This document shows positions 4,353 through 64,000 of a stretch of DNA of 64,000 nucleotides, piece after piece. Position numbers and translations under genes: made by a program. The notes beneath the pieces were generated by a model. It worked only from the letters and a program-made list of their open reading frames with translations, searched no databases and had not been told where the DNA came from. This DNA is from Lingula anatina (taxonomy: Eukaryota > Animalia > Brachiopoda), in NCBI GenBank assembly GCA_051362555.1, contig CM120643.1, positions 13,986,644-14,050,643 of the forward strand. The letters run 5' to 3'. Numbering within the stretch: the first letter of the stretch is position 1; each line of letters starts with the position of its first letter.

Positions 4353-7300
4353 ATGAATGCGGGTAAGACTGAAATTGACGGGGGAACAGACCCTCTGATG
4401 CACGCATCTCGTGATAAGTTTCCAGAAAGTAATGATAAAACTGCTGAGAAAATACAAACTGCAATTTCTACGCCTGGCTTTGAGAATGTTGATTCTCCTA
4501 GTATTATAAATGCTAGTGAACCTGAAAGACTCACAGAAAGTGAAGGGGGGTTTCAAACAAAGATCCCTGTGTCTGAAGAACGTGTCAGTGATGTATGCGC
4601 TGAAGATGGAGATATCACAGTACCACCAATCTCACTGGTTAGTGACAGTACTGCAAACTGTACTGATGAGAAAAAAATGGAAAGTGACAATGAAGCTGAT
4701 ATTGCTCTAGCAATGTCTTTGGATAGTGAAAAAATAAATGCGGAAGACAATGATACTAATGGAGTAATTTCCCCAGCTTCTTTGCCAGAAGTTGATTCTC
4801 CTGGTAAAAGCAACACAGTCAGTTTGTCCAAACCAGCCATGAATCAAGACATGGATAAAGATGACGGTATGGCAGTTCCAATTTCTGTTCAGTACAATGA
4901 AGAATGTATGAATGAAGAACAGATGGGAACTGATGATGAGGTACCATCTTCACACGAACCTAAGAACCAACCCCAAACAGAATTGTCTGACTGTAGAGCA
5001 AATGTTAATGATAATGTACAAAAGACTGAAAGCAGTGAGCCTAATGAAGGCGGTGACAATGGACCAGCCTATCCTGCAGTATTTGATGGGAATATAGGGG
5101 ATAAACCCAACCTGAAGAAAATGATTGCCAAGTGTATAATTTGTGGCTCATTGCCGCGAAGATCTAGGTCTAAGTTCACAAAACTTATCACTTGCCCAGA
5201 AATTCAAAGTGAAATCCAAGAACTTCTGAAATTGTTGGCACCTCCAGCAAGGTCAGATGTTTGCTGTGGTAGGTGTGTCGGTATGATGAAGAGATTTTTG
5301 AGTGCAAAAAAAGTTTTTCTAAACTTAAAGTGTAACATCATTGCACTTCATGTTGATGCACAGACAAAGCCAAAAGTGGCCAGTGAGTCCATAGATGAGG
5401 ATGACCATGAAGAGTCAGATGGGCAAGATATTAATGATTCAGAGGAAGATGTTCAGGAAGCAAGCATTAATAATCGAACTTATAAAAGAAAACTAAGGAG
5501 TAGCAATGTGGTACAACGGGCAAGAACGCGCTCTCGGACTAATGCTGCTCGCAAAGAGTCCCAGCCAAAATTACAAAATATTAGCAACCTCAATGAATTA
5601 GATACTGAAGACCATGAAACAAGTGATACAGACAATAGAAATTGTGATATCAGTCATAACAAACAAGATGGTGAGATATTGGTCAAGCATGAAAACATTG
5701 ATATAGGATATGAGGTTGATGGTAATAGTAGTGACAAGGAGGTCACTCAAAAAGTAAGAGTTCCTCGCAGTAAAAGAAAAACCTTCAAATGTCAACACTG
5801 CAGTAAAATTATTAGTGGAAAAGATGAGTTGGTGGCCCATGAAAGGACACATACTGGGGAGAAACCATTTAAGTGTCGGTACTGTGACACAAGGTTTTAT
5901 AGAAAAAACTCCTGTGTACATCATGAAAAGAAGCACCAAGACAAGCCATTCAGGTGTAAACTTTGTGTCAGGATTTTTTCATCTGAAGGGAAATTAAAAG
6001 AACATGAGACTATTCACTCTTCGGTAAGACCATACCAGTGCCAACACTGTGACAAAACATTTACCAAAAATGAGGAATGTGTAATGCATGAAAGGGTGCA
6101 CACTGGTGAAAAACCTTACCAATGTCAGTTCTGCGATAAAACTTTTCACAGAAAAAGATCATGTGTGTTACATGAAAAGAAAAAGCACAAAGGCAGAGCA
6201 TCATTAAAGAAAAATGATAATGAATCCTCTAACACAGAATTACAGTCATATAAATGTCAATACTGTGATAAAATTTATCGCAGAAAAGATGAATTGACCG
6301 TTCATGAAATGAATCACACTGGTGAGAGACCATTTAAATGCCAGAACTGTGACAAAACATTTAACAGGAAGAGCACGTTTGTTAAACATGAAAAGAAGCA
6401 TGCAAATAAACCATTCAGGTGTTCTCATTGTGAGAAAAGCTTTTCTAAGAAAGTGAACTGTGCTGAGCATGAAATGACCCACACTTTACCTAGGCCATTT
6501 CATTGTCAGTATTGTACGAGGACATTTGACAGGAAAGATGAGTGGACGGCACATGAAAGAACTCACACAGGAGAAAGACCCTTCAAATGTAAAATATGTG
6601 AGAAAACATTTTTGAGGAAGAATTCCTGTGTTAAACATGAAAAGAAACACATGCCTGGTAATTCAACATCTGCGACACCTAAAAAAAGTATTACAGAGGA
6701 AGATGACAGCTCTGACTCTGAAGAAAAGAAATTCCAGTGCCAGCATTGTGATAAAACATTTTATGAGAAGAGGAACTGTGAAAAGCATGAAAAAACTCAC
6801 ATTGAGAAAAAGGCATTTATATGTAAGCATTGTGGTGAAGGTTGCGAGGGCAAACAGGCACTAGTGAGGCATGAAAAGACGCATTTTGGGGGAAAACCAT
6901 ACAAATGCTGGGGATGTGATATGTCCTTTGCCATTCCATCAAGATTAAAAGAGCATGAAAGAATACACACAGGAGAGAAACCATATTTGTGTCAGTACTG
7001 CACCAAAAAATTTACTCAAAGCTCCACTTTGAGATTGCATGAAAGAACCCAACACACAGGGGAAAGACCATTCAAATGTCAGTACTGTGATCAGCGATTT
7101 CCAACCAGATTGTACCGTGAAGAACATGAAAGATTTCACACTGGTGAAAAGCCTTTTAAATGTGATTTTTGTGACAAGAGATTTGTAAGAAAGGCAAATT
7201 GGAGAGATCATGTGCGGACTCACACAGGGATTAAGCCACATGTGTGCTCGTATTGTGGGAAAGGATTTCGCGACCGTGGAACTTGTGTTATACATGAAAG

Positions 7301-7772
7301 AACTCACACTGGGGAGAGACCATATGGATGCAAGTACTGCGACAAAACATTCATCAGGAAATCGAGGTGCACAGAACATGAAAAAACTCACACTGGAGAG
7401 AAACCAGTCAAAACTCAACAATCTGTTAACAAGAATAAAAGCCAGTCTAAGGTTAACAAAAGTCAACATATTGATGACACGTTCAGAAATCAGCACCCTG
7501 ACATCCCATACAAAAGTCACCACTCTGAAAACTCATTCAGAAGCCATCATTCTGAAAATACATATCGAAGCCAGCACTCTGAGAGTTCGTTCATGGGTCA
7601 GTTGTCTGAAAATTCATACAGAAACCAGCATTCTGATGGTGCTTATTTAAGTCAGCAGGGTGATAACACATTTAGGGGTCCTCATTCAAGTAATGTATTC
7701 CCAGCCCCTGAGGTAGTGTATCCTCCAGGGGAGAACCCATACATGTACAGTATGTTTATGCCAGGATTGTAA
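4353..7772 (+). CDS. ZNF1: ZAD-like domain + 18 C2H2 fingers + 9-aa-repeat tail (1139 aa), the most divergent paralog
   Basis: Single ORF with CIIC-x40-CGRC (5133-5363), VKHE motif, 18 C2H2 fingers with many TGEKP/TGERP linkers, and a tail ending MYSMFMPGL*. Confidence 0.93.
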   Translation: MNAGKTEIDGGTDPLMHASRDKFPESNDKTAEKIQTAISTPGFENVDSPSIINASEPERLTESEGGFQTKIPVSEERVSDVCAEDGDITVPPISLVSDSTANCTDEKKMESDNEADIALAMSLDSEKINAEDNDTNGVISPASLPEVDSPGKSNTVSLSKPAMNQDMDKDDGMAVPISVQYNEECMNEEQMGTDDEVPSSHEPKNQPQTELSDCRANVNDNVQKTESSEPNEGGDNGPAYPAVFDGNIGDKPNLKKMIAKCIICGSLPRRSRSKFTKLITCPEIQSEIQELLKLLAPPARSDVCCGRCVGMMKRFLSAKKVFLNLKCNIIALHVDAQTKPKVASESIDEDDHEESDGQDINDSEEDVQEASINNRTYKRKLRSSNVVQRARTRSRTNAARKESQPKLQNISNLNELDTEDHETSDTDNRNCDISHNKQDGEILVKHENIDIGYEVDGNSSDKEVTQKVRVPRSKRKTFKCQHCSKIISGKDELVAHERTHTGEKPFKCRYCDTRFYRKNSCVHHEKKHQDKPFRCKLCVRIFSSEGKLKEHETIHSSVRPYQCQHCDKTFTKNEECVMHERVHTGEKPYQCQFCDKTFHRKRSCVLHEKKKHKGRASLKKNDNESSNTELQSYKCQYCDKIYRRKDELTVHEMNHTGERPFKCQNCDKTFNRKSTFVKHEKKHANKPFRCSHCEKSFSKKVNCAEHEMTHTLPRPFHCQYCTRTFDRKDEWTAHERTHTGERPFKCKICEKTFLRKNSCVKHEKKHMPGNSTSATPKKSITEEDDSSDSEEKKFQCQHCDKTFYEKRNCEKHEKTHIEKKAFICKHCGEGCEGKQALVRHEKTHFGGKPYKCWGCDMSFAIPSRLKEHERIHTGEKPYLCQYCTKKFTQSSTLRLHERTQHTGERPFKCQYCDQRFPTRLYREEHERFHTGEKPFKCDFCDKRFVRKANWRDHVRTHTGIKPHVCSYCGKGFRDRGTCVIHERTHTGERPYGCKYCDKTFIRKSRCTEHEKTHTGEKPVKTQQSVNKNKSQSKVNKSQHIDDTFRNQHPDIPYKSHHSENSFRSHHSENTYRSQHSESSFMGQLSENSYRNQHSDGAYLSQQGDNTFRGPHSSNVFPAPEVVYPPGENPYMYSMFMPGL

Positions 7773-8335
7773 AAATGAATTCAAATGCATTAAAAGGTTA
7801 TGGTAATGCCTCAGTTACGTATATACAGAATTTAGCAGACATTGCTAAAATTTAATATTTTTTACAAGGAAAATGATATACAACATACCTTTAATTGCAT
7901 GTAAAAATAGTGTGAGTTACTTTAGGAAATCATTATTTTGATAAATGTTACTTTTAATATGCATACGATGGTAACATAGTAAGGCATGTAGTATTCATAT
8001 GCTTATATGAAATGGAATACCAGTGTTGAAAATTTGTAGTGCAATATTCATAGAGCAATACCCATCAAGAGAAAATTTAGTCACTGAGAGACAAAATGAT
8101 TCCATTTATTCATTACTTTCAATTATGTATATTTTAGTCCATTTAAAATATAGGGAACTTTTAATAAAATGTTAAATATGAATATATGAAGTAGTCCTGT
8201 GTCATTTGATAGAAGTCTACTGTGAAGAATCTCTCTCTCTCTCTCTCTCCCTCTCAATTTAAGTTGCAAACTACAACAGGAAAACATGCAGTATAGTTTA
8301 CCAAATATGAATAAGCTGGGGGGGGGGGGGGAGAG

Positions 8336-8450
8336 ATAATTACCTTCTAACAGCTTTACTAGGTGTGACAGACATTTAAGCCAGTAAAGGTGATATCAAT
8401 TTAGTGAGGCTCCCCAGGGAGATAGATCAATCCAAATATCTGTCCAGGAT
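8336..8450. mobile_element. Partial (right-arm) copy of the fold-back MITE family
   Basis: TAATTACC...TTAGTGAGGCTCCCCAGGGAGATAGATCAATC matches the right half of 18644-18870. Confidence 0.5.
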
Positions 8451-15364: not shown

Positions 15365-18196
15365 ATGTCTTCGTCAAGGGAAAGTTATAAAAACGCAATT
15401 AATGACGATCAAGAATGCGGATCAAATGGAAAGAATGTGACTTTGAACAAAGAAGGTACTTATAATGAATCCGATGAGGCCACAGATAATGATGGAGAAA
15501 TGCAACTAGATGCAAGGGATCATAGTGTGAAGGTTGAAAATGGTTGTGGCGATATGAATTCACCTGAATTCAGTAATCATGCTGATACACTGTGCATCAG
15601 CATCAAGATTTCTGATGATTCGATTAACAAAAAATTGAGAAGAAAACCTTTGTGCCTTATCTGTGGCCCACCCAAAGGCATCTTAAAAACTGAATACACA
15701 AAACTTTCTTCTTATCCTGATGTTGAAAAAGAAATCCGTGGACTGTTGAAAATACTTTCTCCTCCTCATGAATCAGATGCTTGTTGTGGCAGCTGTCTGG
15801 GTGTCATGAAAAATTTTTTGGTCATGAAAAGGAAGATAATAGCCCTCCACGTTGATGCACAGGTAGATCTACCAGACAGTCAAGGCGATGGGGAATCAGG
15901 AGAGGATCAGGAAATGAGTGATGGGGAAAATATATCTTGCAATACCAACAACCAAGATCAAAATAGTGAGGTGCTTATCAAACATGAAATAATTGACATC
16001 AGTTCTGGTGAGGACAATGACCATAGCAAAGAAAGGGAAAGCCTAAAAAAACATGAAGGAAATGGAAGGAAAACCCTATATTTGAAACCAAAAGTATACC
16101 ATTGCTCTTACTGTGAAAGAACATTCAACAGGGCAAATACACATGCATTGCATGAAAGATCCCACACTGGTGAAACAAATTATAAATGTGAATACTGTGA
16201 ATTGTCATTTACCAGGGCAACTGATCTGAAGGAGCATGGTAGAGTTCATGAGCTGAAATGCTCATATTGTGGAAAATCTTGTTGGGGGCCAAAAGCTCTG
16301 AAGAGACATGAGCTAGATTCTCACATTTCAAAGTTGCATCAGAGACCAAAAATATACAAGTGCTCTTACTGTGATAAAATAGTGACAAAGCAAAGTGCAC
16401 TTACTGTGCATGAAATGATTCACACTGATGATCGTCTCAAATGTAAACATTGTGAAAAATCATTTACAAAAAGGGATGATCTATTGGAGCACGATAAAAT
16501 CCATGAATTGAAGTGCTCTCATTGTGGTAAATCTTGTTGGGGAACAAAAGCTCTTTCCAGTCATGAAAGGATTCATGCTTGCAACAAATTGGACAGTAAT
16601 ACAGAAGTACTCAAATGCTCATTTTGTGATAAAACATTTACTCATAAGAGTTCACTTGTATTACATGAATTGATCCACACTGGTGATAGACTCAAATGTA
16701 AACACTGTGAAAAATCCTTTATGAGGAAGGAAGACTTATTGGAGCACGATAAAACTCATGGATTGAAATGTTCTTATTGTGGTAAATCTTGTAGGGGAAC
16801 AAAAGCTCTTAGAAAACATGAGAGGAATCACACTGTTGCACAATACCGCATGAAAATGGAAATATATCAGTGCTCTCAATGTAATGAAACATTTCAAAGG
16901 GAAAGCGAACTTTTCTTGCATGAAATAAGTCACACTGCTGACAAAGTCAAATGTAAACACTGTGAAGAAATTTTCAGTAAGAAAAGTGAGCTACTGGAGC
17001 ATGATAAAATCCATGAATTGAAATGTTCTCTGTGTGGAAAGTCTTGTTGGGGAACACAGGCTCTTGACAAGCATGAGAGGATTCACATTGATGATGAACC
17101 ATACACCACTGCAGAAAAGATAAAGTGCTCATACTGTGATGAAACTTTTAACGAAAGTGAACTCATTTTTCATGAAAAATCTCACACTATTGATGGATTC
17201 AAATGTCTCCAGTGTGAAAAGACATTTACTAAAAAAAGTGATTTAGTGGATCATGACAAGTCACATGAATTTAAATGTTGTCATTGTGGAAAATCTTGTT
17301 GGGGAAAGAGAGCACTTGACAAGCATGAGAAGTTTCATACTGTTGGAAGACCCTACAAATGTAACACCTGTGATAAGTCATTTTCATGTAGAAGATTTTT
17401 GCAAGACCATGAAAATACTCACACCGGAGAAAAACCTTATTTGTGCCAGTATTGTACCAAAAGCTTTGCCCAAACCTCGACTTTGAAATCTCATGAATTC
17501 ACCCAACATTCTGGAGAGAGGCCACACAAATGTCAATACTGTGGACAGGGCTTTGCCCTAAAATTGGCCTGTGAGGAACATGAACGCTTCCACACGGGGG
17601 AAAAGCCTTTCAAGTGTGATCACTGCGACAAGCGATTCGTAAGGAAAGCCAATTGGAGAGGTCATGTGAAAACCCACCTTGGAATTAAACCACAAATATG
17701 TTCATACTGTGGAAAAGGTTTCCGTGACAGAGGCACCCTTGCTAAACATGAAAGGACTCACACTGGGGAGAGACCATTTAAATGCAAATACTGTGATAAG
17801 GCTTTCAAAACTCAAACTCATCGCAGAACACATGAAAAGACGCACATTGGACAGAAAGCGGTTAAACATCAGACAGCTGAAAATAAAGTGAAAAGTCTAG
17901 CTAAAATTCACAATAGCCAGCGTGCTGAGGACGGATTTGACAGTGAAAACTCTGATGGTTTGGAAATGAGTCAGCAGTTGGACAGTTCATTCATCAGTCA
18001 ACAGTTTGATAGCACATATAGACCCCAGCAAAGTGAGAGTACATTCGGACCTCAGCACACTGACAGTGCATTTAGATCTCAGCAAACTTCATTTAGGGGT
18101 CCACACTCCAGTAATGTGTTCCCTACTCCAGAGGCTGTTTATCACGGAGATAACCCTAATCCTTACATGTATGGCATGTATATGCCAGGGATGTGA
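15365..18196 (+). CDS. ZNF3: ZAD-like C2H2 zinc-finger protein (943 aa, 21 fingers = 5 triplets + 6 core)
   Basis: Single ORF with CLIC-x40-CGSC, IKHE and tail YMYGMYMPGM*. Confidence 0.93.
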   Translation: MSSSRESYKNAINDDQECGSNGKNVTLNKEGTYNESDEATDNDGEMQLDARDHSVKVENGCGDMNSPEFSNHADTLCISIKISDDSINKKLRRKPLCLICGPPKGILKTEYTKLSSYPDVEKEIRGLLKILSPPHESDACCGSCLGVMKNFLVMKRKIIALHVDAQVDLPDSQGDGESGEDQEMSDGENISCNTNNQDQNSEVLIKHEIIDISSGEDNDHSKERESLKKHEGNGRKTLYLKPKVYHCSYCERTFNRANTHALHERSHTGETNYKCEYCELSFTRATDLKEHGRVHELKCSYCGKSCWGPKALKRHELDSHISKLHQRPKIYKCSYCDKIVTKQSALTVHEMIHTDDRLKCKHCEKSFTKRDDLLEHDKIHELKCSHCGKSCWGTKALSSHERIHACNKLDSNTEVLKCSFCDKTFTHKSSLVLHELIHTGDRLKCKHCEKSFMRKEDLLEHDKTHGLKCSYCGKSCRGTKALRKHERNHTVAQYRMKMEIYQCSQCNETFQRESELFLHEISHTADKVKCKHCEEIFSKKSELLEHDKIHELKCSLCGKSCWGTQALDKHERIHIDDEPYTTAEKIKCSYCDETFNESELIFHEKSHTIDGFKCLQCEKTFTKKSDLVDHDKSHEFKCCHCGKSCWGKRALDKHEKFHTVGRPYKCNTCDKSFSCRRFLQDHENTHTGEKPYLCQYCTKSFAQTSTLKSHEFTQHSGERPHKCQYCGQGFALKLACEEHERFHTGEKPFKCDHCDKRFVRKANWRGHVKTHLGIKPQICSYCGKGFRDRGTLAKHERTHTGERPFKCKYCDKAFKTQTHRRTHEKTHIGQKAVKHQTAENKVKSLAKIHNSQRAEDGFDSENSDGLEMSQQLDSSFISQQFDSTYRPQQSESTFGPQHTDSAFRSQQTSFRGPHSSNVFPTPEAVYHGDNPNPYMYGMYMPGM

Positions 18197-46135: not shown

Positions 46136-46139
<4 letters not shown>

Positions 46140-47988: not shown

Positions 47989-50583
47989 ATGGCGGAAGTG
48001 CCGGTGGTGAAATATAAGCGACTGCGAGTAAAAAACAAGAAATCCACAAGTTTATCTGTTGGCAGCAAAGAAAATCAGTTAATACCATATTCAGAAGGAC
48101 TTCAAGAGGCGGAGAAAATACGGTATGAAGAGAAATTGGCCTATCTGAAAGGGCAAGACCCGTATGAAATTACAGAGTGGAGCGGCGATGTGGAATTACT
48201 ACCCAGAGTTACATACATAGACATAGTCAACTATCTGCTATTCAAGCCAAGTCCATACACACAAGACCAGTTAAAATGTTACAAGGGTTTGGATGCCTAC
48301 AACCAGTTCGTGTCAGGATGGGTCAGGGATGTGGCGTCGGTAGAAATCAACGGAAAACGTGTTACAACAGCCAAGGTAAGAAATTTTAAGTAGTGAACAA
48401 CATACAGTAGCTATCAAGTGTATTGACTAATGGTCGTTAGGACTTGCTTTTCTATTTCACGATCTTAATAGATGACAGCTTTATAATTAGGCACCAAAGC
48501 TAGGTTTGAATGCAGTGTTTTTATTAAAACCAGAGGTATTCAGTAGAATTGAAATGAAAGTGTCTATCACAGTCTGCCAACTGATTTTCTTATCTAACTC
48601 ATGGGTGACATGCATGTGCATTATCCTTTTCTTTTCAATTTTTTTTTTTTTAAGAAAAAGGGTCCAATAGCACTGAATTTTTATTTCTACACACATGAGA
48701 ATGTTTGCTTAAGCAAGTGTTTGTATAGTAGCTGAGAATGAGACTTCCTTCTTAGTTTTCAAACTAGATATTATCTCACATAGGAAACAGTTCTTAAGAT
48801 TCTGGTTATTGGTGTCACTGACAACATAAAATGGGATTGGGTTATGTAACATTTGAACAAAAGTGATGTCTTGTGAAAAACAGGTAACTCTCCAGGTAGA
48901 TGTAATTACAAGTAGTTACCTTTACGTCATATAGCAGTCACCTTTTATCAGCTTGGTAGCCTGAGACACTATTTGACAAAGAGTATTTAATTAAGTGGCA
49001 CCACAGATTTGCACGTGCAGTGTACCTTGATCCATAAAATTAACCCTACGTTAATTAATAAACCAATTTTTCTTTTAGGTATTGCACTCTCAGCGCCTTA
49101 ATGACAGTCCTCTGCGACCATGGGTTTTAGCTGACCAGGAAGGTGAAATAATTACGGGACACTGCAACTGTATGGCAGGACTTGGTGAGACCTGTACCCA
49201 TGTTGCAGCTCTGCTATTTTTTGTGGAAGCTGCAGTGAAGATCAGGGATGCCAAAACTGTCACACAAGAGAAGGCATATTGGAAGTTGCCAACACCCTTT
49301 TCAAGTGTCACGTACAGTAAGCTGAAGGACCTTGATTTTACATCTGCATCCTCCTTAAAAAAACAACTTGACACTTCGTTATGCTCAGACAGGCCAGTAA
49401 CTCCACCAACCCCAAACCAAAACAGATCCCAGCCATCAACAGTACCTCCCACACAGGAAAGATTGGACAGATTTTTCAATGCTCTCAGCAAGGTACCATC
49501 AAAGCCAGCTATTCTTGCCCATGTCCCAGAGTATTGTGAAAATTATGTCCCCTTGTTATTAAAAGGAGATTTCCCCATAGTGCTGACAGAGTTGAAGGAC
49601 AAGGAAACTTTTGGCTATACATATAACAATTTAATTGATCACTGTGAAAGCATACTTGAAGGTTTGACAATAACCGTTGAGCAAGTACTACAAGTAGAGG
49701 CAGTGACTAAGCGCCAGAGCCAGACTCCTCACTGGAATCGTTTCCGTGCTGGGAGAATAACTGCTTCGAACATGAAATCGGTATGTAAAACTAACCCTGC
49801 CAGCCCAGCCATGTCACTGATAAAGACGGTCTGTTATCCACAGGCAAGGCAGTTCTCCAGCAACGCCATGGAATGGGGGTGTAGTCATGAAAGTGTGGCA
49901 GTTGATGCTTTTTTGCAGCAGATGAGCCAAGACCACAGTAATATAAGGGTAGTGAACAGTGGACTTATCCTGACACCAGACTACCCTTATATTGCTGCTT
50001 CGCCAGATGGCATTATTGAATGCGATTGCTGTGGAAAGTCCATTTTGGAAGTTAAGTGTCCCTTTTGCAAAAAGGAAAGTACCCTGGATGGGAATGATGA
50101 GACTTTTTATTTGGTCAAGGACAAGGGAGGAGAGTTAAAACTTAAACGGGACCACCAGTACTATTATCAAGTCCAGACACAGCTAGGTGTTGCCAAATTG
50201 GAGAGGGCATTTTTTGTTGTGTGGACTGAACAAGATCTCCATGTTGAGGACATTTATTTTGATGTTGATTTTTGGGAGGGAATTTGCATGAAGTCTAAAC
50301 ATTTTTTTATGAAAGCAGTACTTCCAGAATTGGTAGCTAACTTTTTTCAAGAACCCCAATGCCAGTGCTTGCTGACAAAACAAATACTCGGTTATCTGAT
50401 GAGCAGTGGTGCTACTGCAAAGATATGGAATATGGGAGTATGGTGTGCTGTGATTCTAAGGACTGTTCCATTCAGTGGTTTCACTTCAAGTGTGTGGGGA
50501 TCAAGGGAGAGCCAAAAGGAAAATGGTTCTGTCCTGATTGTAGAAAAACTGTGAAAACGAGTAGAAAAAAGAATCGACAGTAG
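47989..50583 (+). CDS. Transposon accessory protein: SWIM zinc finger + YqaJ/lambda-exonuclease-like domain + C-terminal PHD finger (2 exons; 1-nt frameshift before the PHD)
   Basis: Exon 1 47989-48375 (AAG|GTAAG), exon 2 from 49079 (TTTAG|GTA), joining as TAK-VLHSQR. SWIM CNC..CTH; nuclease motifs RITAS, WG..HE, ASPDG, LEVKCP, YYYQVQ. PHD WCYC...CD..DC..QWFH..C...WFCPDC lies in the -1 frame after the T6 run at 50342-50347. Confidence 0.85.
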
Positions 50584-51113
50584 AAAAAAGTTGTTTCTTC
50601 ATTTTAAGATACAAACATTGACAATTGAATTATGTGCAGGTTTTTTTCTTTGCACACAGCTTAAGAAGCAATCTACATTAAATGGAGAATAAAATAGCAC
50701 TTCATTAGTTTTAGAGTACAACTGCAGTAAGTTGTCAATATTACTGTGGATGTTTTATCATTTGTATGAATTTCTTTTTTTTGTAAAAAACATGGCTCAG
50801 CCATGCAGCAGTCTATCATTTTATGTATGATTCACAAAGCAATACAAGGTTCAAATAATACCCACTTTTATTCTCGTTTATAGATGTGATTCTACAAAAC
50901 TTTACTGAAGGTACAACTCCAGCATGTTATTAAAGTACATGTTTTTAATGTTTGTATTTCTACAATCTTTGTAAAAAAAAATTGATCAGTCATGCAGCAG
51001 TCTGTTTACTATATATATATATATATGTCAGTGCAATCTTAATGTGCAATCTAAATGTGCAATATGCATTTGTGATAAAAGTTTCTTGCCATATGATGAA
51101 TAAATTATCCATT

Positions 51114-52890
51114 TCAATTGAATGGTACAACAGAATCACAAAGATTTGTCAATGCACAACAAACCTTAACAATTTTGTCAATAACAAGTGTGTCATCACC
51201 CTTTACTGGTGTAAAAAAATCGTGTGGTAATTTTGCTGATAATATTGAATACTTCTGACGAACAACGCCTATCACTCTCTCAACATGAATTCTACTGTTG
51301 GCTATCCTCCTCGTTTGTTCAACATCTAAAGCTCCGAGCTGTGATTTACCCCTGGTAAATGCTGGGATGTATAACCGTGCACACATGCTACCTACACTAT
51401 CCTGTATGTCAAAACCTCTATCTGCTAAAATTACATCCCCTGGCAAAAGCTTATTAAGTAAACCACAAGTTTCTGTAATTATTTTGTCACTCGCTCTGCC
51501 GCCATGCCCATCTGAGATGAAACATATCACTCCCTGAGGTGTAATACCTATCAAATATTTTGCTGTGTTATTGTGTTTGTAAGATGACCAAGTTTCATTT
51601 CTTGCTTTGAGGTTAGATGGACATTCTATAGGTATTTCAAAGCAATCAATAATCACTGCAACTTTTGTACCAAAATGCTCTCTAAAACTCATTGGCATTG
51701 TTTTTTTCAGTTGCTCTCTCTCAGGCCAATGAATGAGAGGTGACAAAAGAACAAACAATACTCCCAAAATGCTTCTAAATATTCGTGAAACAGTACTATC
51801 AGAAACACCAAATCTGACAGCCAAATCCTGGTTTGCAAGGTTAAGTCTCAGTTTCATAAGAACAAGGATCAATTGTTGAAATTTATCTAAAGCACTCTTG
51901 TGATGAAGAATAATATCAGACTCAACATAATCATACAATGATTTCAGAACTGGGTAATTTGGGAGGCCAGTGTAATATCTTACTTTTTCATCGTCATTTT
52001 CAAAAAAGTCAATATCAAATTGTTTTGCCTTGCAAGCTTTCTTTAGTTCGGCATTTTCACTTTGTAGTCTCATTATTTCCTCTTCCATGGCTGTATACAG
52101 CTTCATGTCAACAGTAGTTTGAGATGCTGTCCCAGTCTCAACATTTGTAGTCATCTCGACAGTTGCAGCTACTTCTCCAGACTTCTGCAAATCAAGTAAT
52201 GCAGTTGCTGCCTCATGTTGTTTCTTTTTTGTGGATCTCTGGACTGAGCGATGATATCTTGAGTGGGGTGTTGCTTGCTGATTTTCTGTGTCAGATGGCC
52301 TTCCCATTTTCACGGTTGGGGCCCAGTCAGGATTGAGCTTATCATACAGTGCCGCTGGTTTATCTGTAAATCACATAGCAATTTTTTTTGTTAACATATC
52401 AAGCAAAAAGACCGAGTTTCAGCATTTCAAGTGCATGCTATTATAACTTTCAAAACCTGTATGCTTACATGATGTAAACTGTGTCACTAGACTAAAATGA
52501 TTTAGAAATATAACTTTTCGTAGTTAAATACATAGCAGTTCCCTACACCATGTAGTGACTGGCCAGGGTCTACCCGGGCTCGATAGCTCAGAAGTTGAGC
52601 ACTCCACTCCACTCGGGTATTTCCCCCAAAACGATACAACTAAATTATCCTTTTCCATGTAATGTAAACTCACCTACGAAATGGTCTGAGCACACACGTA
52701 TGTGTTCATAGCTTGATTCTTTGATGTCTGATCTGCCGATGTTAGATAACCATTTATCACGCCTTGCTTGCGATAATTCCTTAGTCTGGTCACCTTGGTG
52801 TGTTATAACTTTTGGTAGCCTGTAGTATGATCGATCATTTTCTCGATTTCGCCTGTTCGAACAGCCAAAAACAGCACAAAACGACGGCAT
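51114..52890 (-). CDS. THAP-domain DDE transposase (DDE_Tnp_4/HARBI1-like), 2 exons, ~488 aa, open
   Basis: Exon 1 52890-52674 (THAP CAVFGC...RVCSDHF; GTGAGT donor); exon 2 52363-51114 begins in frame [34 protein letters not shown]; catalytic [21 protein letters not shown]. Confidence 0.92.
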
Positions 52891-53241
52891 TTTAATTCAA
52901 AGCCCGCAACCACGCTACCTGCCCATGCGCTTTGTTCCGGTCCCTCAACATGGCGGCGGCTAGAGATCGTGACGTCATTCAAGGACGCTCTATAGAAAAA
53001 AGCCTCATATTTTCGCTCTTCTTTCAGATCTTAGCACAAGTGAATTGAGGATGAATCATTAAATTTAAAAATAAATGAATAAAATAAAAATACATACTAC
53101 ATACAGCATATCTCTAATTCTGTCACCATCAACATTATGATTATCTACATTTTGAAGAAATGTTCATATTTGCTCTGTAAATTAAAATACTTAATTTGCA
53201 ATGTCAATATATTCTAGGTGTTCTTGGTCTCAACTGCAGTA

Positions 53242-55926
53242 ATGTCTGAGCACAAGAAGAATGAACATGAAGAAACGGCACCTGGTGAAATAGATATCCA
53301 TAGTCCATCAATGACTTTGTCAGACAAAAGTCCTGAATATATATCTGTTCCTGGTCAAAATGTTGACTCAAATAAAGAAGAAACGACTTTAAACAAAGAT
53401 GACACTGAGTCTGATGATGCTAGTACATATAATGATGGGGAAATGCCACAAGGGGCACTCAATAAAAGTGTGGATGATAAAAACATTCATGGCAATATAA
53501 AAATACCTCTTCCAACTGAACTCAGTCATGATACTGATACACTGTGCAATAATACCAATATAACTGATAATTTGAGGAGCAAAGATGTAAAACAAAGGCT
53601 CACGTGTTTGGTCTGTGGCCCACATAAGGACACTTCTAAGGCTGAGTATGTAAAGCTGTCAACTTGTCCAGATATTGAGAGAGAAATCCATGAGCTTTTG
53701 AAAATACTTTCTCCTCCTGCAGAATCTGATGTTTGTTGTGGCAGATGTTTGGATTTAATGAAAACCTTTGTTAACTTAAAGAATGATTTTCAGCAAATGA
53801 AACGAAAAATAACAGCTCTACACATTGATGGACAGTTAGAAATGCAAAACAGTCAAATGTGTGAGGAATCGGACACTGATGATCATGACATGAGTGATGA
53901 GGACAATCAAACACATGATCCCAGAAGCCAAGAACAAGACAGTGAAATGCTCATTAAGCATGAAATCATCGATATTGGATTTACAGAGGAAAATAATCCT
54001 ACTAAAGAAAAGGGAACATTTGAAAAGGACACTTCAAATAATGGAAGTATAGAAACCACACATTCAGTAAGAGAAATGTACAAATGTTGCCATTGTAATG
54101 CAACATTCAATAAAGCAAGTGCTCATGCTATACACGAAAGATCTCACAATGGGGAAACAATCTTTAATTGTGAACTTTGTGAAGAGACCTTTTCCAGAGC
54201 TGGAGACCTAAGAGAACATGAGAAAGTACATGAGATGAAATGTTCTTTTTGTAATAAATCTTGTCGGGGACCTAGAGCTTTGAGCAGGCATGAAAAAGCC
54301 CACACTGCAAAACTGAACAAGAAACCTGAAATATTTAAGTGCTCAGAGTGTGATAAAATTTTCAGTAAGAAGCTGGCTCTTGTTAGTCATGAAATAGTTC
54401 ACATTAGTGGCAGACTCACATGTCAGCAATGTGAAAGGACATTTAAAAGTAAAAAGGATCTGGCAAAGCATGAAAGGACTCATGCATTGACGTGCTCTTA
54501 TTGTGGTAAAATTTGCTGGGGAACTAAAGCACTTAACAAGCATGAAAGAGTTCACACTGGTGAAGATCATGAAAGCAAAACAAAAACATACAAATGCTCA
54601 CATTGTGACAAGACATCCAGCTCGAAAGGTGCAATTGTCTTGCATGAAATGATTCACACTACCAACAGACTCAAATGTAAACAATGTGAAAAATCTTTTA
54701 CAAAAAAGGATGACCTATTGGAGCATGAAAAAATCCATGAACTGAAATGTTCTTATTGTGGTAAATCTTGTTGGGGAACAAGAGCTCTTATTAAACATGA
54801 AAGGAATCACAATGGCGAAATACCACAAAAGATTGTGAATTATACATACAAATGTTCATACTGTAATGAAAGTTTCAGTGGGAAAAATCAACGGGATGTA
54901 CATGAAACTATTCATTTTGTTGAAGGATTCAAATGTAAACATTGTGGACAGTCTTTTACCATGAAAGAAGATTTTATTGAACATGACAAATCACATGAAT
55001 TTAAATGTTCTCATTGTGGAAAATCTTGTTGGGGAACAGAAGCTCTTAACAAGCATGAGAAATTTCACACGGTTGAAAAACCATACAAATGTAACAGTTG
55101 TGATAAGGCATTTCTATACAAAAGAGCATTGCAAGACCATGAATATACTCACACCGGAGAAAAACCTTATTTGTGCCAGTACTGTACCAAAAGCTTTGCT
55201 AGCAGCTCAACTTTAAAATCACATGAAATGACACAACACACTGATGATAGACCATACCAATGCCAGTACTGTGATCGCGGATTTGCATCCAGATTATCCT
55301 GGGAAGAACATGAACGCTTGCACACAGGGGAGAAACCGTTTAAGTGTGATCACTGTGGCAAAAGATTTGTTAGAAAATCATGTTGGAGAGACCATTTGAA
55401 AATTCATCTTGGAATAAAACCTCATGTTTGCTCATACTGTGGAAGAAGATTTCTTGACAAATCCCACCTTATTAGACATGAGAGAACCCACACTGGCGAA
55501 AAACCATATAAGTGTAAACACTGTGATAAAACATTCAATAGAAAAAGTAACTGTAACACACATGAAAAAAGTCACATTGGAAAGAAAACTGTAAAACTGC
55601 GTTCATCTGAAAATAAATTTAAAAGCTCATCTGAAAGAAGCATGCATGCTGAAGACAGTGTTAACAGTGAGAACTCTGATGGTTTGGAAATGAGTCAGCA
55701 GTTGGACAGTTCATTTATCAGTCAACAGTTTGACAGCACATATAGACCCCAACACAGTGAGAGTACATTCAGACCTCAGCACACTGACAGTACATTGAGA
55801 TCTCAGCACATGGAAACCTCATTTAGGGGTCCACACTCCAGTAATGTGTTCCCTACTCCAGAGGCTGTTTATCATGGAGACAACCCTAATCAGTACATGT
55901 ATGGTATGCACATGCCAGGGATGTAA
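53242..55926 (+). CDS. ZNF9: ZAD-like C2H2 zinc-finger protein (894 aa, 18 fingers = 4 triplets + 6 core)
   Basis: Acceptor attctag|GTG at 53217, ATG 53242, CLVC...CCGRC, IKHE, tail YMYGMHMPGM*. Confidence 0.92.
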   Translation: MSEHKKNEHEETAPGEIDIHSPSMTLSDKSPEYISVPGQNVDSNKEETTLNKDDTESDDASTYNDGEMPQGALNKSVDDKNIHGNIKIPLPTELSHDTDTLCNNTNITDNLRSKDVKQRLTCLVCGPHKDTSKAEYVKLSTCPDIEREIHELLKILSPPAESDVCCGRCLDLMKTFVNLKNDFQQMKRKITALHIDGQLEMQNSQMCEESDTDDHDMSDEDNQTHDPRSQEQDSEMLIKHEIIDIGFTEENNPTKEKGTFEKDTSNNGSIETTHSVREMYKCCHCNATFNKASAHAIHERSHNGETIFNCELCEETFSRAGDLREHEKVHEMKCSFCNKSCRGPRALSRHEKAHTAKLNKKPEIFKCSECDKIFSKKLALVSHEIVHISGRLTCQQCERTFKSKKDLAKHERTHALTCSYCGKICWGTKALNKHERVHTGEDHESKTKTYKCSHCDKTSSSKGAIVLHEMIHTTNRLKCKQCEKSFTKKDDLLEHEKIHELKCSYCGKSCWGTRALIKHERNHNGEIPQKIVNYTYKCSYCNESFSGKNQRDVHETIHFVEGFKCKHCGQSFTMKEDFIEHDKSHEFKCSHCGKSCWGTEALNKHEKFHTVEKPYKCNSCDKAFLYKRALQDHEYTHTGEKPYLCQYCTKSFASSSTLKSHEMTQHTDDRPYQCQYCDRGFASRLSWEEHERLHTGEKPFKCDHCGKRFVRKSCWRDHLKIHLGIKPHVCSYCGRRFLDKSHLIRHERTHTGEKPYKCKHCDKTFNRKSNCNTHEKSHIGKKTVKLRSSENKFKSSSERSMHAEDSVNSENSDGLEMSQQLDSSFISQQFDSTYRPQHSESTFRPQHTDSTLRSQHMETSFRGPHSSNVFPTPEAVYHGDNPNQYMYGMHMPGM

Positions 55927-56270: not shown

Positions 56271-56631
56271 AATCTCATAAGACTGGGAGAGGAAGTGGTT
56301 TTGAAAATTTTCCATCATTGACTTCCAAATGAAGTTGTATTAAAATGTTGCAGGTAGCATTAAAATTATGATGACAATTGGACTAAATTGGTGTGTATAT
56401 AGTAACTTAAAATTGGAGATCTATACCAGCATTTTTATTTCTGTTATTTGAGGATGGATAGACATGCACCATGTAGGAAATAAATGTTGAATTTTCATTA
56501 ATGCATTGATGTCAGAAAACCCATTTTGTACAACAGTGATATGGTAGAATTATAAAATTAAATAAGCATAAGCACTTTTATTTGGTCAGTGCTAATCAAG
56601 CTTCATCCTGTCTCATACTCTTTCTTATCTT

Positions 56632-58096
56632 GCGTCTCAATGTTCGTAAGGCGTCTGGGCCAGGTGGAATTTCACCTCGTGTTCTCAAACTCTGTGCTTA
56701 CCAACTTGCGTACATCTTTACTGTCATCTACAATTGGTCTCTACAAATCCGCAGAGTACCATTGCTCTGGAAGACGGCGTCTATCATCCCGGTACCAAAA
56801 TCCAACCGAGTTACCAGCTTAAACGATCTTAGACCCATGGCTCTGACTCCGGTGCCCATGAAAATTTTAGAAAAATTAGTTTTAAATTTTATTAAAGAAA
56901 TTGTGCCGAAAACCTTGGACCCACTACAATTTGCTTATCGATCTAACAGAAATGTTGAAGATGCAATTAATCTGTGCCTACACACTGTACTACAACACTT
57001 AGATAACAAATACTCTTATGCAAGGATTTTATTTATTGACTACAGTTCAGCTTTTAACACAATTGTGCCAAAAAAACTATATTTGAAACTTTTACACCAG
57101 CTTAAGCTGCCTGTTTTTATTTGTGACTGGATTTTAGACTTTCTTTTAGATAGAAGACAATCTGTTAAAGTCGGCTCTTATAGCTCAAAAATAACAGTCT
57201 TAAATACCGGTGCACCACAGGGATGCGTCCTTTCACCTTGTCTTTACTCCCTTTTTACCTATGATTGCACTAGTGTAAGCGACGGGACTTTTCTCATGAA
57301 ATTTGCGGATGATACTACGCTTGTGGGGCTAGTTACTGATAATGACGAGAGTACATATAGAGAATCTGTTGAGTCGGTGTTAAGCTGGTGCGAGAGTAAT
57401 GATCTCATCTTGAACATAGCTAAAACCAAAGAAATGATAGTGGATTTTAGAAGGAATCAGAATGTAAAGGTACCACTCACCATTGGTAATGTTGAAGTTA
57501 GTAGGGTAGAGGAATTTAAACTACTTGGTATACACCTTAACAGTAAATTGAATTGGAAAGATAACACCGCAAAGAGTGTAAAGAAGGCACGGCAAAGACT
57601 ATTTTTTTTAAAGATCATTGAGAACTTTTACTGATAGCGTGCCTATTTTAGTCAATTTTTACAGGTGTGTAATTGAAAGCATTCTAGCGTACGGAATTAT
57701 AATATGGTATAGCGGAACAGCTGGGGAGGAAAGGAAGAAATTAGCAAACGTTGTAAAAACTGCAAGCAGGATTAGCGGGCAGGATCTCCCCAAGCTGGAA
57801 GATATTTTTAAAGACAGGATGGAGAAAAGAATTGTCAACACCATGAAAGACTCTTTCCATCCTGCATCATCTCTTTTTACGTTTTTACCAAGCAACAGTA
57901 GACTTTTAACTTTTAAAGGCAATAAACGCTTTTTAAACAGCTTTTATCCAAGTGCAGTGACGCATTTTAATTTGATCTCAAAACTAAATTCTTAATTTAT
58001 TTATTTATTGTATAATTTTATTATTTTACTCTGTATACTGCTCCAAAAGGAAAATGATTTCCGATTTTTATAATTGGCTAAATAAACTCTTATCTT
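56632..58096 (+). mobile_element. 5'-truncated Rex1/Babar-like LINE (reverse transcriptase, one frameshift near 57610)
   Basis: Motifs WKTASIIPVPK, LNDLRPMALT, LDPLQFAYR, FIDYSSAFNTI, GAPQGCVLSP and KFADDT. The ORF continues in another frame to 57995, followed by AATAAA and a (TCTTA)n tail. Confidence 0.88.
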
Positions 58097-60476: not shown

Positions 60477-60716
60477 GACCCATTTCCATTACTAAATTGG
60501 TCTAGCTGGATTGACCCATCTCCAAGGGGTTTCTCAATAAATTGCTTTCAGCTTATTGGCTTATGTCTGGCACGCCTTCTAAAGCTGCTAAATGATAGTT
60601 ATCAGCTTCAGTAGGCGTGTCAGACATCAGAGTTGCATAAGCTGAAAGCAATTTAACGAGAAACCCCTTGGAGATGGGTTGATTCTGCTAGATCGATCTA
60701 GGTATGGGAACATGAT
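60477..60716. mobile_element. Fold-back MITE related to 1568-1836
   Basis: Perfect 22-bp inverted pair ACCCATCTCCAAGGGGTTTCTC (60514-60535 / 60658-60679), plus TCTGGCACGCC / GGCGTGTCAGA arms shared with the family. Confidence 0.75.
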
Positions 60717-61367: not shown

Positions 61368-61435
61368 TTAATTTGCAATGTCAAAAATGTTAATTTTGTA
61401 ATATGTTCCAGGTGTTTTTGGTTTCAACAGTAATT

Positions 61436-64000
61436 ATGTCTGAGCCAGAGAAGAACAAAATTGAAGAAAGAGCATCTGGTGAGAAGGATATCCAAAGTCC
61501 ATCAAAGACTTTGTCAGAGAAAAGGTTTGAAAATATATCTTTTCCTGGTCAAAATGTTAATACAGAAGAAGAAGAACCGACTTTAAACAAAGATGATACG
61601 GAGTCTGAAGCTGCTTCATATAGCGATAGGGAAATGCCAGAAAAGGCACACAATAAAAGTGTGGATGATAAAAACAATGATGGCAATATAAAAGAGCCTG
61701 TACCAAGTGAACTCAGTCATTTTGGTGATACACTGTGTAATAATACCAAGATAACTGATAATTTGAGGAGCAAACATAGGAAACAAAGGATCAGGTGTTT
61801 GGTCTGTGGCCCACACAAAGACACTTCCAAGGCTGAATATATAAAGCTGTCAACTTGTCCAGATATTGAGAGAGAAATCCATGAGCTTTTAAAAATACTT
61901 TCTCCTCCCGCAGAATCTGATGTTTGTTGTGGCAGATGTTTGGATTTAATGAAAACCTTTGTTAACTTAAAGAATGATTTTCAGCAAATGAAACGGAAAA
62001 TAACAGCTCTACACATTGATGGGCAGTTAGAAATGCAAAACAGTCAAATGTGTGAGGAATCGGACACTGATGATCATGACATGAGTTATGATGATGATGA
62101 TCAAGCACATGAGCCAAGCAGCCAAGAACAAGACAGTGAAATGGTCATTAAGCATGAAATAATTGATATTGGGTTTGATGAGGAAAATAATCCTACTGAA
62201 GAAAAGGGCAGCCTTGAAAATGATAACTCAAACAATGCAAACATAGAGAATGCACATTCAAAAAGAAAAATATACAATTGTTGCCATTGTAATAGAACAT
62301 TCAGTCAGGCAAGTGCTCATGCCTTACATGAAAGATCTCACACTGGGGAAACAATTTACAAATGTGAATATTGTGAAGAGTCTTTTACTAGAGCTGGACA
62401 CCTGAGAGAGCATGGAAAAGTTCATGAGTTGAAATGTTCTTATTGTAATAAATCTTGTTGGGGGCCTAGAGCTTTAGGCAGGCATGAAGAAACCCACACT
62501 GCAAAACTGAACCGGAAACCGAAGAAAACTGAAAAATTTAAGTGTTCATACTGTGATAAAATTCTTACTAAAAAGCATGCACTTGTAATGCATGAAACGA
62601 TACACACTGATGACAGACTTAAATGTAAACATTGTGAAAAATCTTTTATGAGGAAGGAAGATTTAATGGAGCATGAAAAAATTCATGAATTGAAATGTTC
62701 TTACTGTGGTAAATCTTGTTGGGGAACAAGAGCACTTGTCAAACACGAGAGACTACACAAAGGCCAAAATTCTGAAAGCAAAACAAAAACATACAAGTGC
62801 TCACATTGTGACAAGACATCTAGCTGGAAAGGTGCAATGGTCATGCATGAAATGATCCACACTGGTGATCGACTCAAATGTCAACAATGTGAAAAAAATT
62901 TTACAAAAAAAGATGATCTATGGGAGCATGAAAAAATTCATGAACTGAAATGTTCTTACTGTAGTAAATCTTGTTGGGGATCCAGAGCTCTTATCAAACA
63001 TGAGAGTATTCACAGTGGTGAAATGCCACAAAAGAATTTGAATGCATACAAATGTTCATATTGTGATGAAAGTTTCAATTGGAGAAATCAACTCGATGCG
63101 CATGAAACTATTCATTTTATTGAAGGAATCAAATGTAAACATTGTGGACAATCTTTAACTGGGAAAGATGAGATTGTTGAACACGATACATCACATGAAT
63201 TTAAATGTTCTCATTGTGGAAAATCTTGTTGGGGAATGGAAGCTCTAAAGAAGCATGAGAAGTATCATACTATGGAAAAACGATTCAAATGCGACATCTG
63301 TGATAAGTCATTTCGAGTTCAAAGAGCATTGCAAAACCATCAAAATACTCACACTGGTGAAAAACCTTACTTGTGCAAGTACTGTACCAAAGGCTTTGCT
63401 AATGGTTCAACTTTGATATCACATGTGATGACCCAACACACTGGAGATAGACGACACAAATGCCAGTACTGTGATCGCCGATTTGGAGCCAGGTTGTCTC
63501 TTGAAGAACATGAACGCTTGCACACAGGGGAGAAACCATTTAAGTGCGATCACTGTAACAAAAGATTTGTTAGAAAATCATGTTGGAGAGATCATTTGAA
63601 GATTCATCTTGGAGTTAAATCTCATATTTGTTCCTACTGTGGAATGGGATTTCTTGACAAAACTCACCTTATTAGACATGAAAGAACCCACACTGGTGAA
63701 AAACCATATAAGTGCAAACACTGTGATAAAGCATTCAATAGAAAAAGTAACTGTACCACACATGAAAAAAGTCACACCGGTGAGAAACAATTTAAACAGC
63801 GGTCATCTGAAAATAAAGTGGAAAGTCTATCTGAAAAAAGTCTGCATGCTAAAGGGGATGTTAACAGTGAGAACTCTGAAGGCCTGGCAATGAGTCAGCA
63901 GTTGGACAGTTCATTCATCAGTCAGCAGTTTGATAGCACACATAGACCCCAGCACAGTGAGAGTACATTCAGACCTCAGCACATGGAAGCCTCATTTAGG
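61436..64000 (+). CDS. ZNF10: ZAD-like C2H2 zinc-finger protein (>855 aa, 18 fingers), runs off the window
   Basis: Acceptor ttccag at 61411, ATG 61436 (MSEPEKNK), closest to ZNF9. The frame is consistent to ...QHMEASFR at 64000. Missing from the ORF track because no stop is reached. Confidence 0.9.
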   Translation, partial: MSEPEKNKIEERASGEKDIQSPSKTLSEKRFENISFPGQNVNTEEEEPTLNKDDTESEAASYSDREMPEKAHNKSVDDKNNDGNIKEPVPSELSHFGDTLCNNTKITDNLRSKHRKQRIRCLVCGPHKDTSKAEYIKLSTCPDIEREIHELLKILSPPAESDVCCGRCLDLMKTFVNLKNDFQQMKRKITALHIDGQLEMQNSQMCEESDTDDHDMSYDDDDQAHEPSSQEQDSEMVIKHEIIDIGFDEENNPTEEKGSLENDNSNNANIENAHSKRKIYNCCHCNRTFSQASAHALHERSHTGETIYKCEYCEESFTRAGHLREHGKVHELKCSYCNKSCWGPRALGRHEETHTAKLNRKPKKTEKFKCSYCDKILTKKHALVMHETIHTDDRLKCKHCEKSFMRKEDLMEHEKIHELKCSYCGKSCWGTRALVKHERLHKGQNSESKTKTYKCSHCDKTSSWKGAMVMHEMIHTGDRLKCQQCEKNFTKKDDLWEHEKIHELKCSYCSKSCWGSRALIKHESIHSGEMPQKNLNAYKCSYCDESFNWRNQLDAHETIHFIEGIKCKHCGQSLTGKDEIVEHDTSHEFKCSHCGKSCWGMEALKKHEKYHTMEKRFKCDICDKSFRVQRALQNHQNTHTGEKPYLCKYCTKGFANGSTLISHVMTQHTGDRRHKCQYCDRRFGARLSLEEHERLHTGEKPFKCDHCNKRFVRKSCWRDHLKIHLGVKSHICSYCGMGFLDKTHLIRHERTHTGEKPYKCKHCDKAFNRKSNCTTHEKSHTGEKQFKQRSSENKVESLSEKSLHAKGDVNSENSEGLAMSQQLDSSFISQQFDSTHRPQHSESTFRPQHMEASFR

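What the first reader, a model, noticed from the sequence alone, without database searches (positions are those of the whole stretch)
4353..64000. Expanding cluster of ZAD-like zinc-finger genes with an unrecognised effector architecture: a candidate KRAB-ZFP analogue
Seen: at least 10 tandem, same-strand paralogs with uninterrupted CDSs share a 4-Cys N-terminal domain, an invariant SUMO-consensus motif, a variable finger array, a conserved 6-finger core and a 9-aa-repeat tail, and sit among many TE insertions. Established: lineage-specific C2H2 expansions with a dedicated effector domain (KRAB in tetrapods, ZAD in insects) evolve by tandem birth-and-death, and KRAB-ZFPs repress TEs. Inference: this may be an independent family of that kind, probably outside insects, with its own C-terminal module.
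Basis: partly seen in the sequence, partly recalled or inferred. Interest (0 to 1): 0.85.

Follow-up and report, generated by a model that had tools for sequence, protein, structure and literature searches.

The report
Brachiopod ZAD zinc-finger gene cluster
Ten neighbouring zinc-finger genes in the lamp shell Lingula carry a front domain predicted to fold like the insect ZAD pairing domain, and they swap DNA-reading fingers with each other, so this gene family likely expanded outside arthropods too; a role in silencing transposons is untested.

Summary
Largely confirmed: ten same-strand genes, each with a single-ORF coding region, a 4-Cys domain, an (I/V)KHE SUMO-type motif, 16-21 C2H2 fingers and a repeat tail. 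Gene 4 stops 21 residues early; gene 7's end is displaced by an insertion. All database relatives are Lingula anatina (brachiopod), so the host is not an insect. The 'unrecognised' domain is a divergent ZAD: weak Pfam zf-AD match (E 4e-4, below cut-off); the only 5 of 48,161 solved chains at Z>=5 are Drosophila ZADs. At least 16 members were found, against 295 ZNF ORFs published for Lingula: not KRAB scale. Five terminal fingers keep their contact residues (omega 0.19-0.47); the finger before them is hypervariable (omega about 2, p 0.011, 0.064 corrected). Paralogs are mosaics, and a 168-nt tail block is nearly identical even at silent sites. The tail looks disordered, not a folded module. Transposon enrichment is not shown; expression, dimerisation, binding and repression are untested. 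Best reading: a brachiopod expansion of ZAD-ZNF chromatin regulators diversifying by recombination. Nine paper searches surfaced no spiralian ZAD-ZNF cluster; the scan had not reported this one.

The parts
4353..7772 (+). Gene 1, 1139 aa, 18 fingers; most divergent window member; ZAD 5133-5363, SUMO motif 5682-5693, last six fingers 6906-7391
   Evidence: 98% identical to Lingula anatina protein P0001
10467..13022 (+). Gene 2, 851 aa, 16 fingers; ZAD 10812-11042 (the domain modelled), SUMO motif 11166-11177, last six fingers 12180-12665, homogenised tail block 12789-12956
15365..18196 (+). Gene 3, 943 aa, 21 fingers; ZAD 15653-15862 with a helix 7 residues shorter; hypervariable finger 17360-17422
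20989..23763 (+). Gene 4, 924 aa, 21 fingers; early TAG removes the last 21 residues; mosaic with a gene 6-like segment around the hypervariable finger
26195..29032 (+). Gene 5, 945 aa, 21 fingers; gene 3-like body with gene 6-like last finger and tail
33121..35550 (+). Gene 6, 809 aa, 16 fingers; internal finger losses
37578..40118 (+). Gene 7, 846 aa, 16 fingers; hairpin element inserted in the last codons; database allele P0002 (98%) has the normal ending
41976..44837 (+). Gene 8, 953 aa, 21 fingers; front part close to gene 7 (ZAD dS 0.11), terminal fingers far from gene 7 (dS 0.90)
53242..55926 (+). Gene 9, 894 aa, 18 fingers; ZAD 53605-53835
61436..64000 (+). Gene 10, at least 855 aa, 18 fingers, cut by the window end in the tail; sister of gene 9
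47884..52896 (.). ISL2EU-like DNA transposon between genes 8 and 9: THAP + HTH + DDE_Tnp_4 on the minus strand, YqaJ and PHD on the plus strand; ends not found
   Evidence: domain set as in PMC4482050 (passages)
56540..57992 (+). LINE-type reverse transcriptase fragment in two frames between genes 9 and 10
   Evidence: RVT_1 E 5.8e-28

Best explanation
This is a tandem cluster of ten C2H2 zinc-finger genes in Lingula whose front domain is predicted to fold as a ZAD, so the proteins likely work as dimeric, sequence-specific chromatin regulators like insect ZAD-ZNFs. Step 1 (fold predicted and matched; dimer inferred from the family): the ZAD pairs two copies of a protein through its long helix. 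Step 2 (anatomy shown, binding inferred): the last six fingers, joined by canonical linkers, read a site of about 18 bp; five fingers keep similar contact residues across paralogs and so would read a related core motif, while the first finger of the six changes fast and would retune one flank. Step 3 (motif shown, use inferred): an invariant psi-K-x-E site in the acidic linker would be SUMOylated and help engage chromatin cofactors. Step 4 (shown): copies arise by local duplication and exchange finger segments and tails with each other, which gives new combinations of reading fingers. The likely output is locus-specific chromatin organisation or silencing at a limited set of related sites, which may include repeats, rather than one-gene-per-transposon defence.
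For: ZAD: C-x2-C-x40-C-x2-C plus long helix in 10 of 10 window genes; Pfam zf-AD is the only family hit on the isolated domains, 5 of 10 members, best E 3.9e-4; ESM Atlas zf-AD cluster at 0.90, 181 shared features; AlphaFold model pLDDT 84 with helix 49-82; the top five Foldseek rows are ZAD chains, probability 0.96, 0.93, 0.90, 0.25, 0.33; 5 of 48,161 chains reach Z>=5 and all are Drosophila ZADs (best Z 7.3, rmsd 3.0, 79 aligned; best unrelated 4.2); ZAD dN/dS 0.20 over 30 pairs. Reading head: 46 of 50 linkers among the last six fingers are canonical against 10 of 126 upstream; contact omega 0.19-0.47 in five fingers and 1.96 in the sixth from the end. SUMO motif: K and E invariant in 15 of 15 aligned members while x varies H/Q/K. 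Exchange: 45 informative sites among genes 3-6 fall in 5 runs against 25 expected, 0 of 20,000 permutations as low; gene 8 is a chimera. Family functions: PMC7913770, PMC12649048, PMC12947871, PMC7655104 (passages).
Against: The zf-AD score (21 bits) is under the curated cut-off of 28 and the full-length proteins give no zf-AD hit at E<=0.1. No Foldseek match reaches E<=0.001 and the best Z is under 8, which the tool calls middling. The helix's hydrophobic moment did not exceed shuffles in any of 16 members (P 0.07-0.50). The domain starts at residue 97-261 of the window proteins, not at the very N-terminus. One member (P0005) lacks the SUMO motif. No functional or expression data bear on steps 1-3.
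Confidence: 0.6

Rival explanations
1. A KRAB-ZFP-like defence family: each paralog would bind a different repeat or transposon through its variable finger and silence it through SUMO-dependent heterochromatin machinery, in an arms race.
For: Contact codons of the sixth finger from the end have omega 1.96 (p 0.011; 1.86 and 1.96 with p 0.05 and 0.03 on local trees); young duplicates with dS near 0.05 already differ in that helix; finger shuffling; invariant SUMO motif; ZNF and retroelement numbers correlate across animals (PMC10547256, passages) and recent repeat expansions are reported in L. anatina (PMC13121700, passage).
Against: That finger was singled out after inspection, the corrected p is 0.064, and recombination breaks the tree assumption. 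The other five reading fingers are under purifying selection (each p<=0.009 for omega<1). About 16 members found against 295 ZNF ORFs in Lingula. No KRAB-type domain. Recognised repeats cover 13% of the window, no more than the 31.7% genome figure. In flies ZAD-ZNFs do not appear to target TEs specifically (PMC10547256).
Confidence: 0.2
2. Mostly neutral birth-and-death: one or two old members do the work and the young tandem copies are redundant products of unequal crossing-over that are already decaying.
For: Gene 4 has an early stop, gene 7 an insertion in its last codons, genes 6 and 7 have lost fingers; near-identical copies 3-5 are about 95-96% alike including flanks; several young pairs have omega near or above 1 in N-terminus, linker or tail on few changes.
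Against: All ten frames stay open through every finger; ZAD and core keep dN/dS 0.20 and 0.16 across pairs with mean dS near 0.8; genes 9 and 10 differ by 8 silent and 1 replacement change in the ZAD.
Confidence: 0.12
3. The 4-Cys domain is not descended from the arthropod/vertebrate ZAD-ZNF ancestor but is a ZAD-fold treble-clef domain captured independently, for example from a transposon protein.
For: No sequence relative outside Lingula at E<=0.001 or E<=1; 10-19% identity to the five matched ZADs; the Atlas lists unnamed short mollusc-leaning clusters (0.91, 0.90) and a RAG1 N-terminal cluster (0.87, a lead only) near it.
Against: [quoted passage not shown]
Confidence: 0.08

Closest known systems
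Insect ZAD-ZNF proteins (Pfam PF07776; Serendipity-delta, M1BP, Grauzone, Pita, CG2712)
   Same: 4-Cys ZAD fold, variable linker, C-terminal C2H2 array, tandem lineage-specific duplication (PMC7913770, PMC7655104 passages).
   Different: Host is a brachiopod; 16-21 fingers, most with non-canonical linkers and built from a 255-nt three-finger unit; the sign of positive selection sits in a finger, whereas in Drosophila it is mainly in the linker (PMC7655104); family-specific repeat tail; about 16 members against 90-150 in many insects (PMC7913770).
Vertebrate ZNF276/ZFP276
   Same: ZAD-like domain plus C2H2 cluster outside arthropods; its solved domain appears at Z 3.5.
   Different: Single gene with five fingers (PMC12649048); no expansion; structurally further from the model than the fly ZADs.
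Tetrapod KRAB-ZFPs and cyprinid FiNZ-ZNFs
   Same: Tandem clusters, long finger arrays in one coding stretch, finger gain and loss, fast change at some contact residues.
   Different: No KRAB domain; the front domain is in the family known for dimerisation, not for corepressor binding; hundreds of genes there (684 FZNFs in zebrafish, PMC10547256) against about 16 here; five reading fingers conserved; TE targeting untested.

Membership tests
ZAD-ZNF | Four invariant cysteines as two CxxC pairs in an N-terminal domain | tested here: met
   10 of 10 window genes and 6 of 6 other members; first Cys at residue 48-261
ZAD-ZNF | ZAD treble-clef fold with a long C-terminal helix | tested here: met
   Predicted model pLDDT 84; top five Foldseek rows and all five VIA rows at Z>=5 are ZAD structures; a prediction, not a solved structure
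ZAD-ZNF | Sequence match to the zf-AD profile | tested here: inconclusive
   5 of 10 isolated domains match, best E 3.9e-4, 21 bits against a cut-off of 28; Atlas 0.90
ZAD-ZNF | Variable linker followed by a C-terminal tandem C2H2 array | tested here: met
ZAD-ZNF | Homodimerisation through the ZAD | not tested
   No complex prediction could be run; bench test needed
KRAB-ZFP | KRAB domain | tested here: not met
   No KRAB family among Pfam hits at E<=0.1 in 10 of 10 proteins
KRAB-ZFP | Positive selection on DNA-contact residues | tested here: inconclusive
   1 of 6 fingers omega 1.96 (p 0.011, 0.064 corrected); 5 of 6 below 1; upstream array not tested by site class
KRAB-ZFP | Binding to and silencing of transposons through a recruited corepressor | not testable with these tools
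   Needs binding and knockdown data
FiNZ-ZNF | 28-aa acidic FiNZ domain on its own exon, cyprinid fish only (PMC10547256) | not tested
   No FiNZ profile was compared; the host is a brachiopod and the front domain lies in the same ORF as the fingers

The most novel reading that the evidence does not exclude
Brachiopods independently turned a ZAD-ZNF into a recombining, adaptive repeat-recognition family: a fixed five-finger anchor plus one positively selected finger that paralogs swap, with a SUMO site and a tail kept uniform so that all members use one silencing route. This would be a spiralian counterpart of KRAB- and FiNZ-ZNF defence built on the ZAD, and the 168-nt tail block, constrained at silent sites, could be a shared DNA or RNA control element for the whole cluster.
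Probability: 0.2. Interest if true: 0.8.

Novelty: new variant of a known kind. Interest (0 to 1): 0.5.

Why it matters
[quoted passage not shown] A cluster of at least 16 ZAD-fold ZNFs in a brachiopod gives an independent expansion in a third bilaterian branch, so shared causes can be tested. It also shows that the standard Pfam cut-off misses spiralian ZADs, so more may hide among genes labelled only 'zinc finger protein'. The single hypervariable finger next to a conserved core gives a sharp, testable prediction about what the family is tracking.

Tried and rejected
No whole genome was held, so no genome-wide count; family size rests on protein databases. Sequencing runs: no RNA holder listed; laying reads returned no data, so expression, promoters and 5' introns remain open. 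The dimer prediction was never queued because the queue was full. Sequence search of solved structures gave only RING2 at E>=0.11 over part of the domain: rejected as chance. Tail as a folded module: pLDDT 56, pTM 0.10, no secondary structure; no usable Atlas hit; Pfam only single-member low-complexity hits. Tail block as an RNA structure: folding energy no better than synonymous shuffles (z +0.48, -0.08, -0.56). Helix amphipathicity test: null. HP1-type PxVxL and CtBP-type PxDLS motifs (consensus recalled): none in the 10 window proteins. Terminal inverted repeats of the ISL2EU-like element: not found. Pfam scan of 142 of 200 intergenic frames of 50 aa or more (left out: mostly frames nested in the two known elements, overlapping frames and microsatellites): 5 had hits (3 EGF, 1 PHD, 1 THAP). 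Literature: nine searches (one search was on the transposon) surfaced no ZAD-ZNF cluster in a brachiopod, mollusc or annelid; no paper listed holds 'ZAD' with Lingula or brachiopod; zf-AD terms were absent from the held supplements of two Lingula genome papers. Subscription papers (Chung 2007; Bonchuk and Georgiev 2024) were not available and may mention such genes; 3 supplement files of PMC10547256 were not searched.
Full report
Observation. Six-frame translation shows ten long + strand frames with C2H2 arrays between 4353 and 64000. From the aligned start codons they encode 809-1139 aa with 16-21 fingers and cover 43% of the window. All ten share a domain with C-x2-C-x40-C-x2-C, an (I/V)KHE motif in an acidic linker, six terminal fingers that align without gaps and an S/Q/H-rich tail with a 27-nt period in 7 of 10 genes. 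Two are damaged at the very end: gene 4 by a TAG 21 codons early and gene 7 by an inserted hairpin element that displaces its last codons. Gene 10 runs off the window.

Host. The gene 1 domain found one protein among 20 candidates, named Lingula anatina by its sources; it is 98% identical to gene 1 over 1139 aa. A profile of the ten domains found 5 proteins among 1.84 billion representatives, all L. anatina. A broader profile found 9 clusters among 7,988 scored candidates, all L. anatina. The host is therefore this brachiopod or a very close relative, not an insect. P0001 and P0002 are alleles of genes 1 and 7, P0003 is a fragment 98% like gene 5, and P0004, P0005, P0008-P0011 are further paralogs (30-62% to the best window gene). 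That gives at least 16 members, counted across two different sources. The supplement of PMC10547256 lists 295 ZNF ORFs for Lingula (row seen). Other, more divergent ZAD subfamilies could lie below my searches; no genome was held to check.

The 4-Cys domain is a divergent ZAD. Full-length proteins gave only finger families and weak chance-level hits in Pfam, but the isolated domains matched zf-AD and nothing else, 5 of 10 members, best E 3.9e-4, 21 bits against a cut-off of 28. The Atlas put a zf-AD cluster second at 0.90, between two unnamed mollusc-leaning clusters. AlphaFold gave pLDDT 84 with a helix from residue 49 to 82. Foldseek had no match at E<=0.001, but its top five of 31 rows are chains of Serendipity-delta, M1BP and Grauzone ZADs. 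The exhaustive aligner found 5 of 48,161 chains at Z>=5, all Drosophila ZADs (7.3, 6.4, 6.2, 5.5, 5.4; best rmsd 2.5-3.2 over 69-79 residues), the next unrelated chain at 4.2 and rabbit ZNF276 at 3.5. The tool warns that Z under 8 is common, but here five of five belong to one family and span the whole domain. The domain is under purifying selection (dN/dS 0.20). A test for helix amphipathicity was null and the dimer could not be modelled, so dimerisation is inferred from the family (PMC7913770, passages).

The reading head. Among the last six fingers 46 of 50 linkers are canonical; upstream only 10 of 126 are, and 37 are of 4 residues or fewer. I infer that the last six fingers read DNA. In a fixed-site codon model of my own on these 162 codons, framework sites have omega 0.17 and the 24 contact sites (-1, 2, 3, 6; positions recalled) 0.50, significantly below 1. 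Finger by finger, five have contact omega 0.19-0.47, each below 1 at p<=0.009, and the sixth from the end has 1.96, p 0.011, with 1.86 (p 0.05) and 1.96 (p 0.03) on local trees. This finger was noticed first by eye, six were tested (corrected p 0.064), it rests on four codons, and recombination breaks the model, so this is a hint of positive selection, not proof. Between alleles, 0 of 72 contact residues differ in gene 1 and 1 of 60 in gene 7.

Exchange between paralogs. Among genes 3-6, 45 informative sites fall in 5 runs where 25 are expected; none of 20,000 permutations was as low. Gene 4 carries a gene 6-like segment around the variable finger and gene 5 a gene 6-like last finger and tail. 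Gene 8 is close to gene 7 in the ZAD (dS 0.11) and far from it in the core (dS 0.90), and trees of the two regions differ (several forks open, P0005 left out of the finger tree). The cluster thus makes new finger combinations by recombination.

The linker motif and the tail. Aligned on the motif, K and E are invariant in 15 of 15 members while the middle residue varies (H, Q, K), inside a hydrophobic patch in an otherwise variable linker; P0005 lacks it. This is the pattern expected of a SUMO acceptor (consensus recalled); modification is untested. The tail profile found 5 proteins among 5,971 candidates, all family members. It is predicted unstructured, has no Atlas or credible Pfam match and is missing in P0005, P0010 and P0011. 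Its last 35 or so residues are kept in the old members (gene 1, P0004, P0008), which suggests a short functional motif. In genes 2-9 a 168-nt block is nearly identical at silent sites too, which protein-level selection cannot explain; conversion is the simpler cause given the mosaicism, there is no RNA-folding signal, and a DNA or RNA element is not excluded.

Transposons. The window holds an ISL2EU-like element (THAP, HTH, DDE_Tnp_4, YqaJ, PHD; domain set as in PMC4482050, passages), a LINE RT fragment and ten short repeat copies, together 13% of the window as a lower bound. With 31.7% repeats reported for the species (PMC13121700, passage) there is no sign of enrichment, and neighbouring insertions would not show targeting in any case.

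Mechanism and rivals. Most likely (0.6) these are dimeric sequence-specific chromatin regulators in the manner of insect ZAD-ZNFs, many of which sit at insulators or heterochromatin (PMC12947871, PMC7655104, passages), sharing a related core motif and differing at a flank. That the domain is a ZAD I put near 0.9. A KRAB-like arms race (0.2) is supported by the variable finger, shuffling and the SUMO motif, and opposed by the small family, five conserved fingers and no KRAB. Neutral turnover (0.12) and independent capture of a ZAD-fold domain (0.08) remain.

Novelty. The architecture is known; the host and the expansion appear not to be in the literature I could search. [quoted passage not shown] What I saw of each paper: passages for PMC10547256 (plus one supplement row), PMC7913770, PMC12649048, PMC12947871, PMC7655104, PMC13121700, PMC4482050; term look-ups only for PMC5291267 (no ZAD mention) and the supplements of PMC13121700 and PMC4595640; search listings for the rest. 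Verdict: new variant of a known kind, interest 0.5.

Noticed in passing
window 12789-12956, 17969-18130, 23593-23760, 28799-28966, 35317-35484, 39852-40019, 44613-44780, 55693-55860: A 168-nt coding block in the tail differs at only 2-12% of same-amino-acid codons between paralogs that differ at 23-48% in ZAD and core (Fisher p 5e-8 to 1e-5 for four non-independent pairs). Gene conversion is likelier; nucleotide-level constraint is not excluded. Gene 1 does not share it.
   Followed up: partly
window 1572-1831, 8334-8441, 18684-18852, 40080-40245, 60483-60710: Five copies of one hairpin (MITE-like) element; one sits in the last codons of gene 7, where the database allele P0002 has none.
   Followed up: partly
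window 47884-52896: ISL2EU-like transposon with long open frames for DDE transposase and YqaJ nuclease, ending about 350 bp before gene 9's start codon.
   Followed up: partly
window 234-1607: Three calcium-binding EGF exons of an unrelated gene on the + strand bound the cluster on the left; the cluster likely continues to the right, since four further members share the database contig length of P0001 and P0002.
   Followed up: no
proteins P0002, P0006, P0007: Three database 'isoforms' of gene 7 differ only in the tail, with endings like those of genes 8 and 9; probably annotation joins caused by the near-identical tail block.
   Followed up: no
window 15653-15862, 21277-21486, 26483-26692, 33409-33618: The ZAD helix of genes 3-6, and of P0004 and P0005, is exactly 7 residues (two turns) shorter than in the other members, which could limit cross-pairing between paralogs.
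   Followed up: no
window 16409-17341 and equivalents in genes 4, 5, 8, 10: The upstream array is built from a 255-nt three-finger unit with 3-residue linkers and a G-K/R-A-K/R helix; these fingers may not read DNA in the usual tandem way.
   Followed up: no
window 2242-2563, 36304-36647, 56114-56275; 46322-46504, 56333-56495: Two further dispersed repeats at 70-75% identity, not classified.
   Followed up: no
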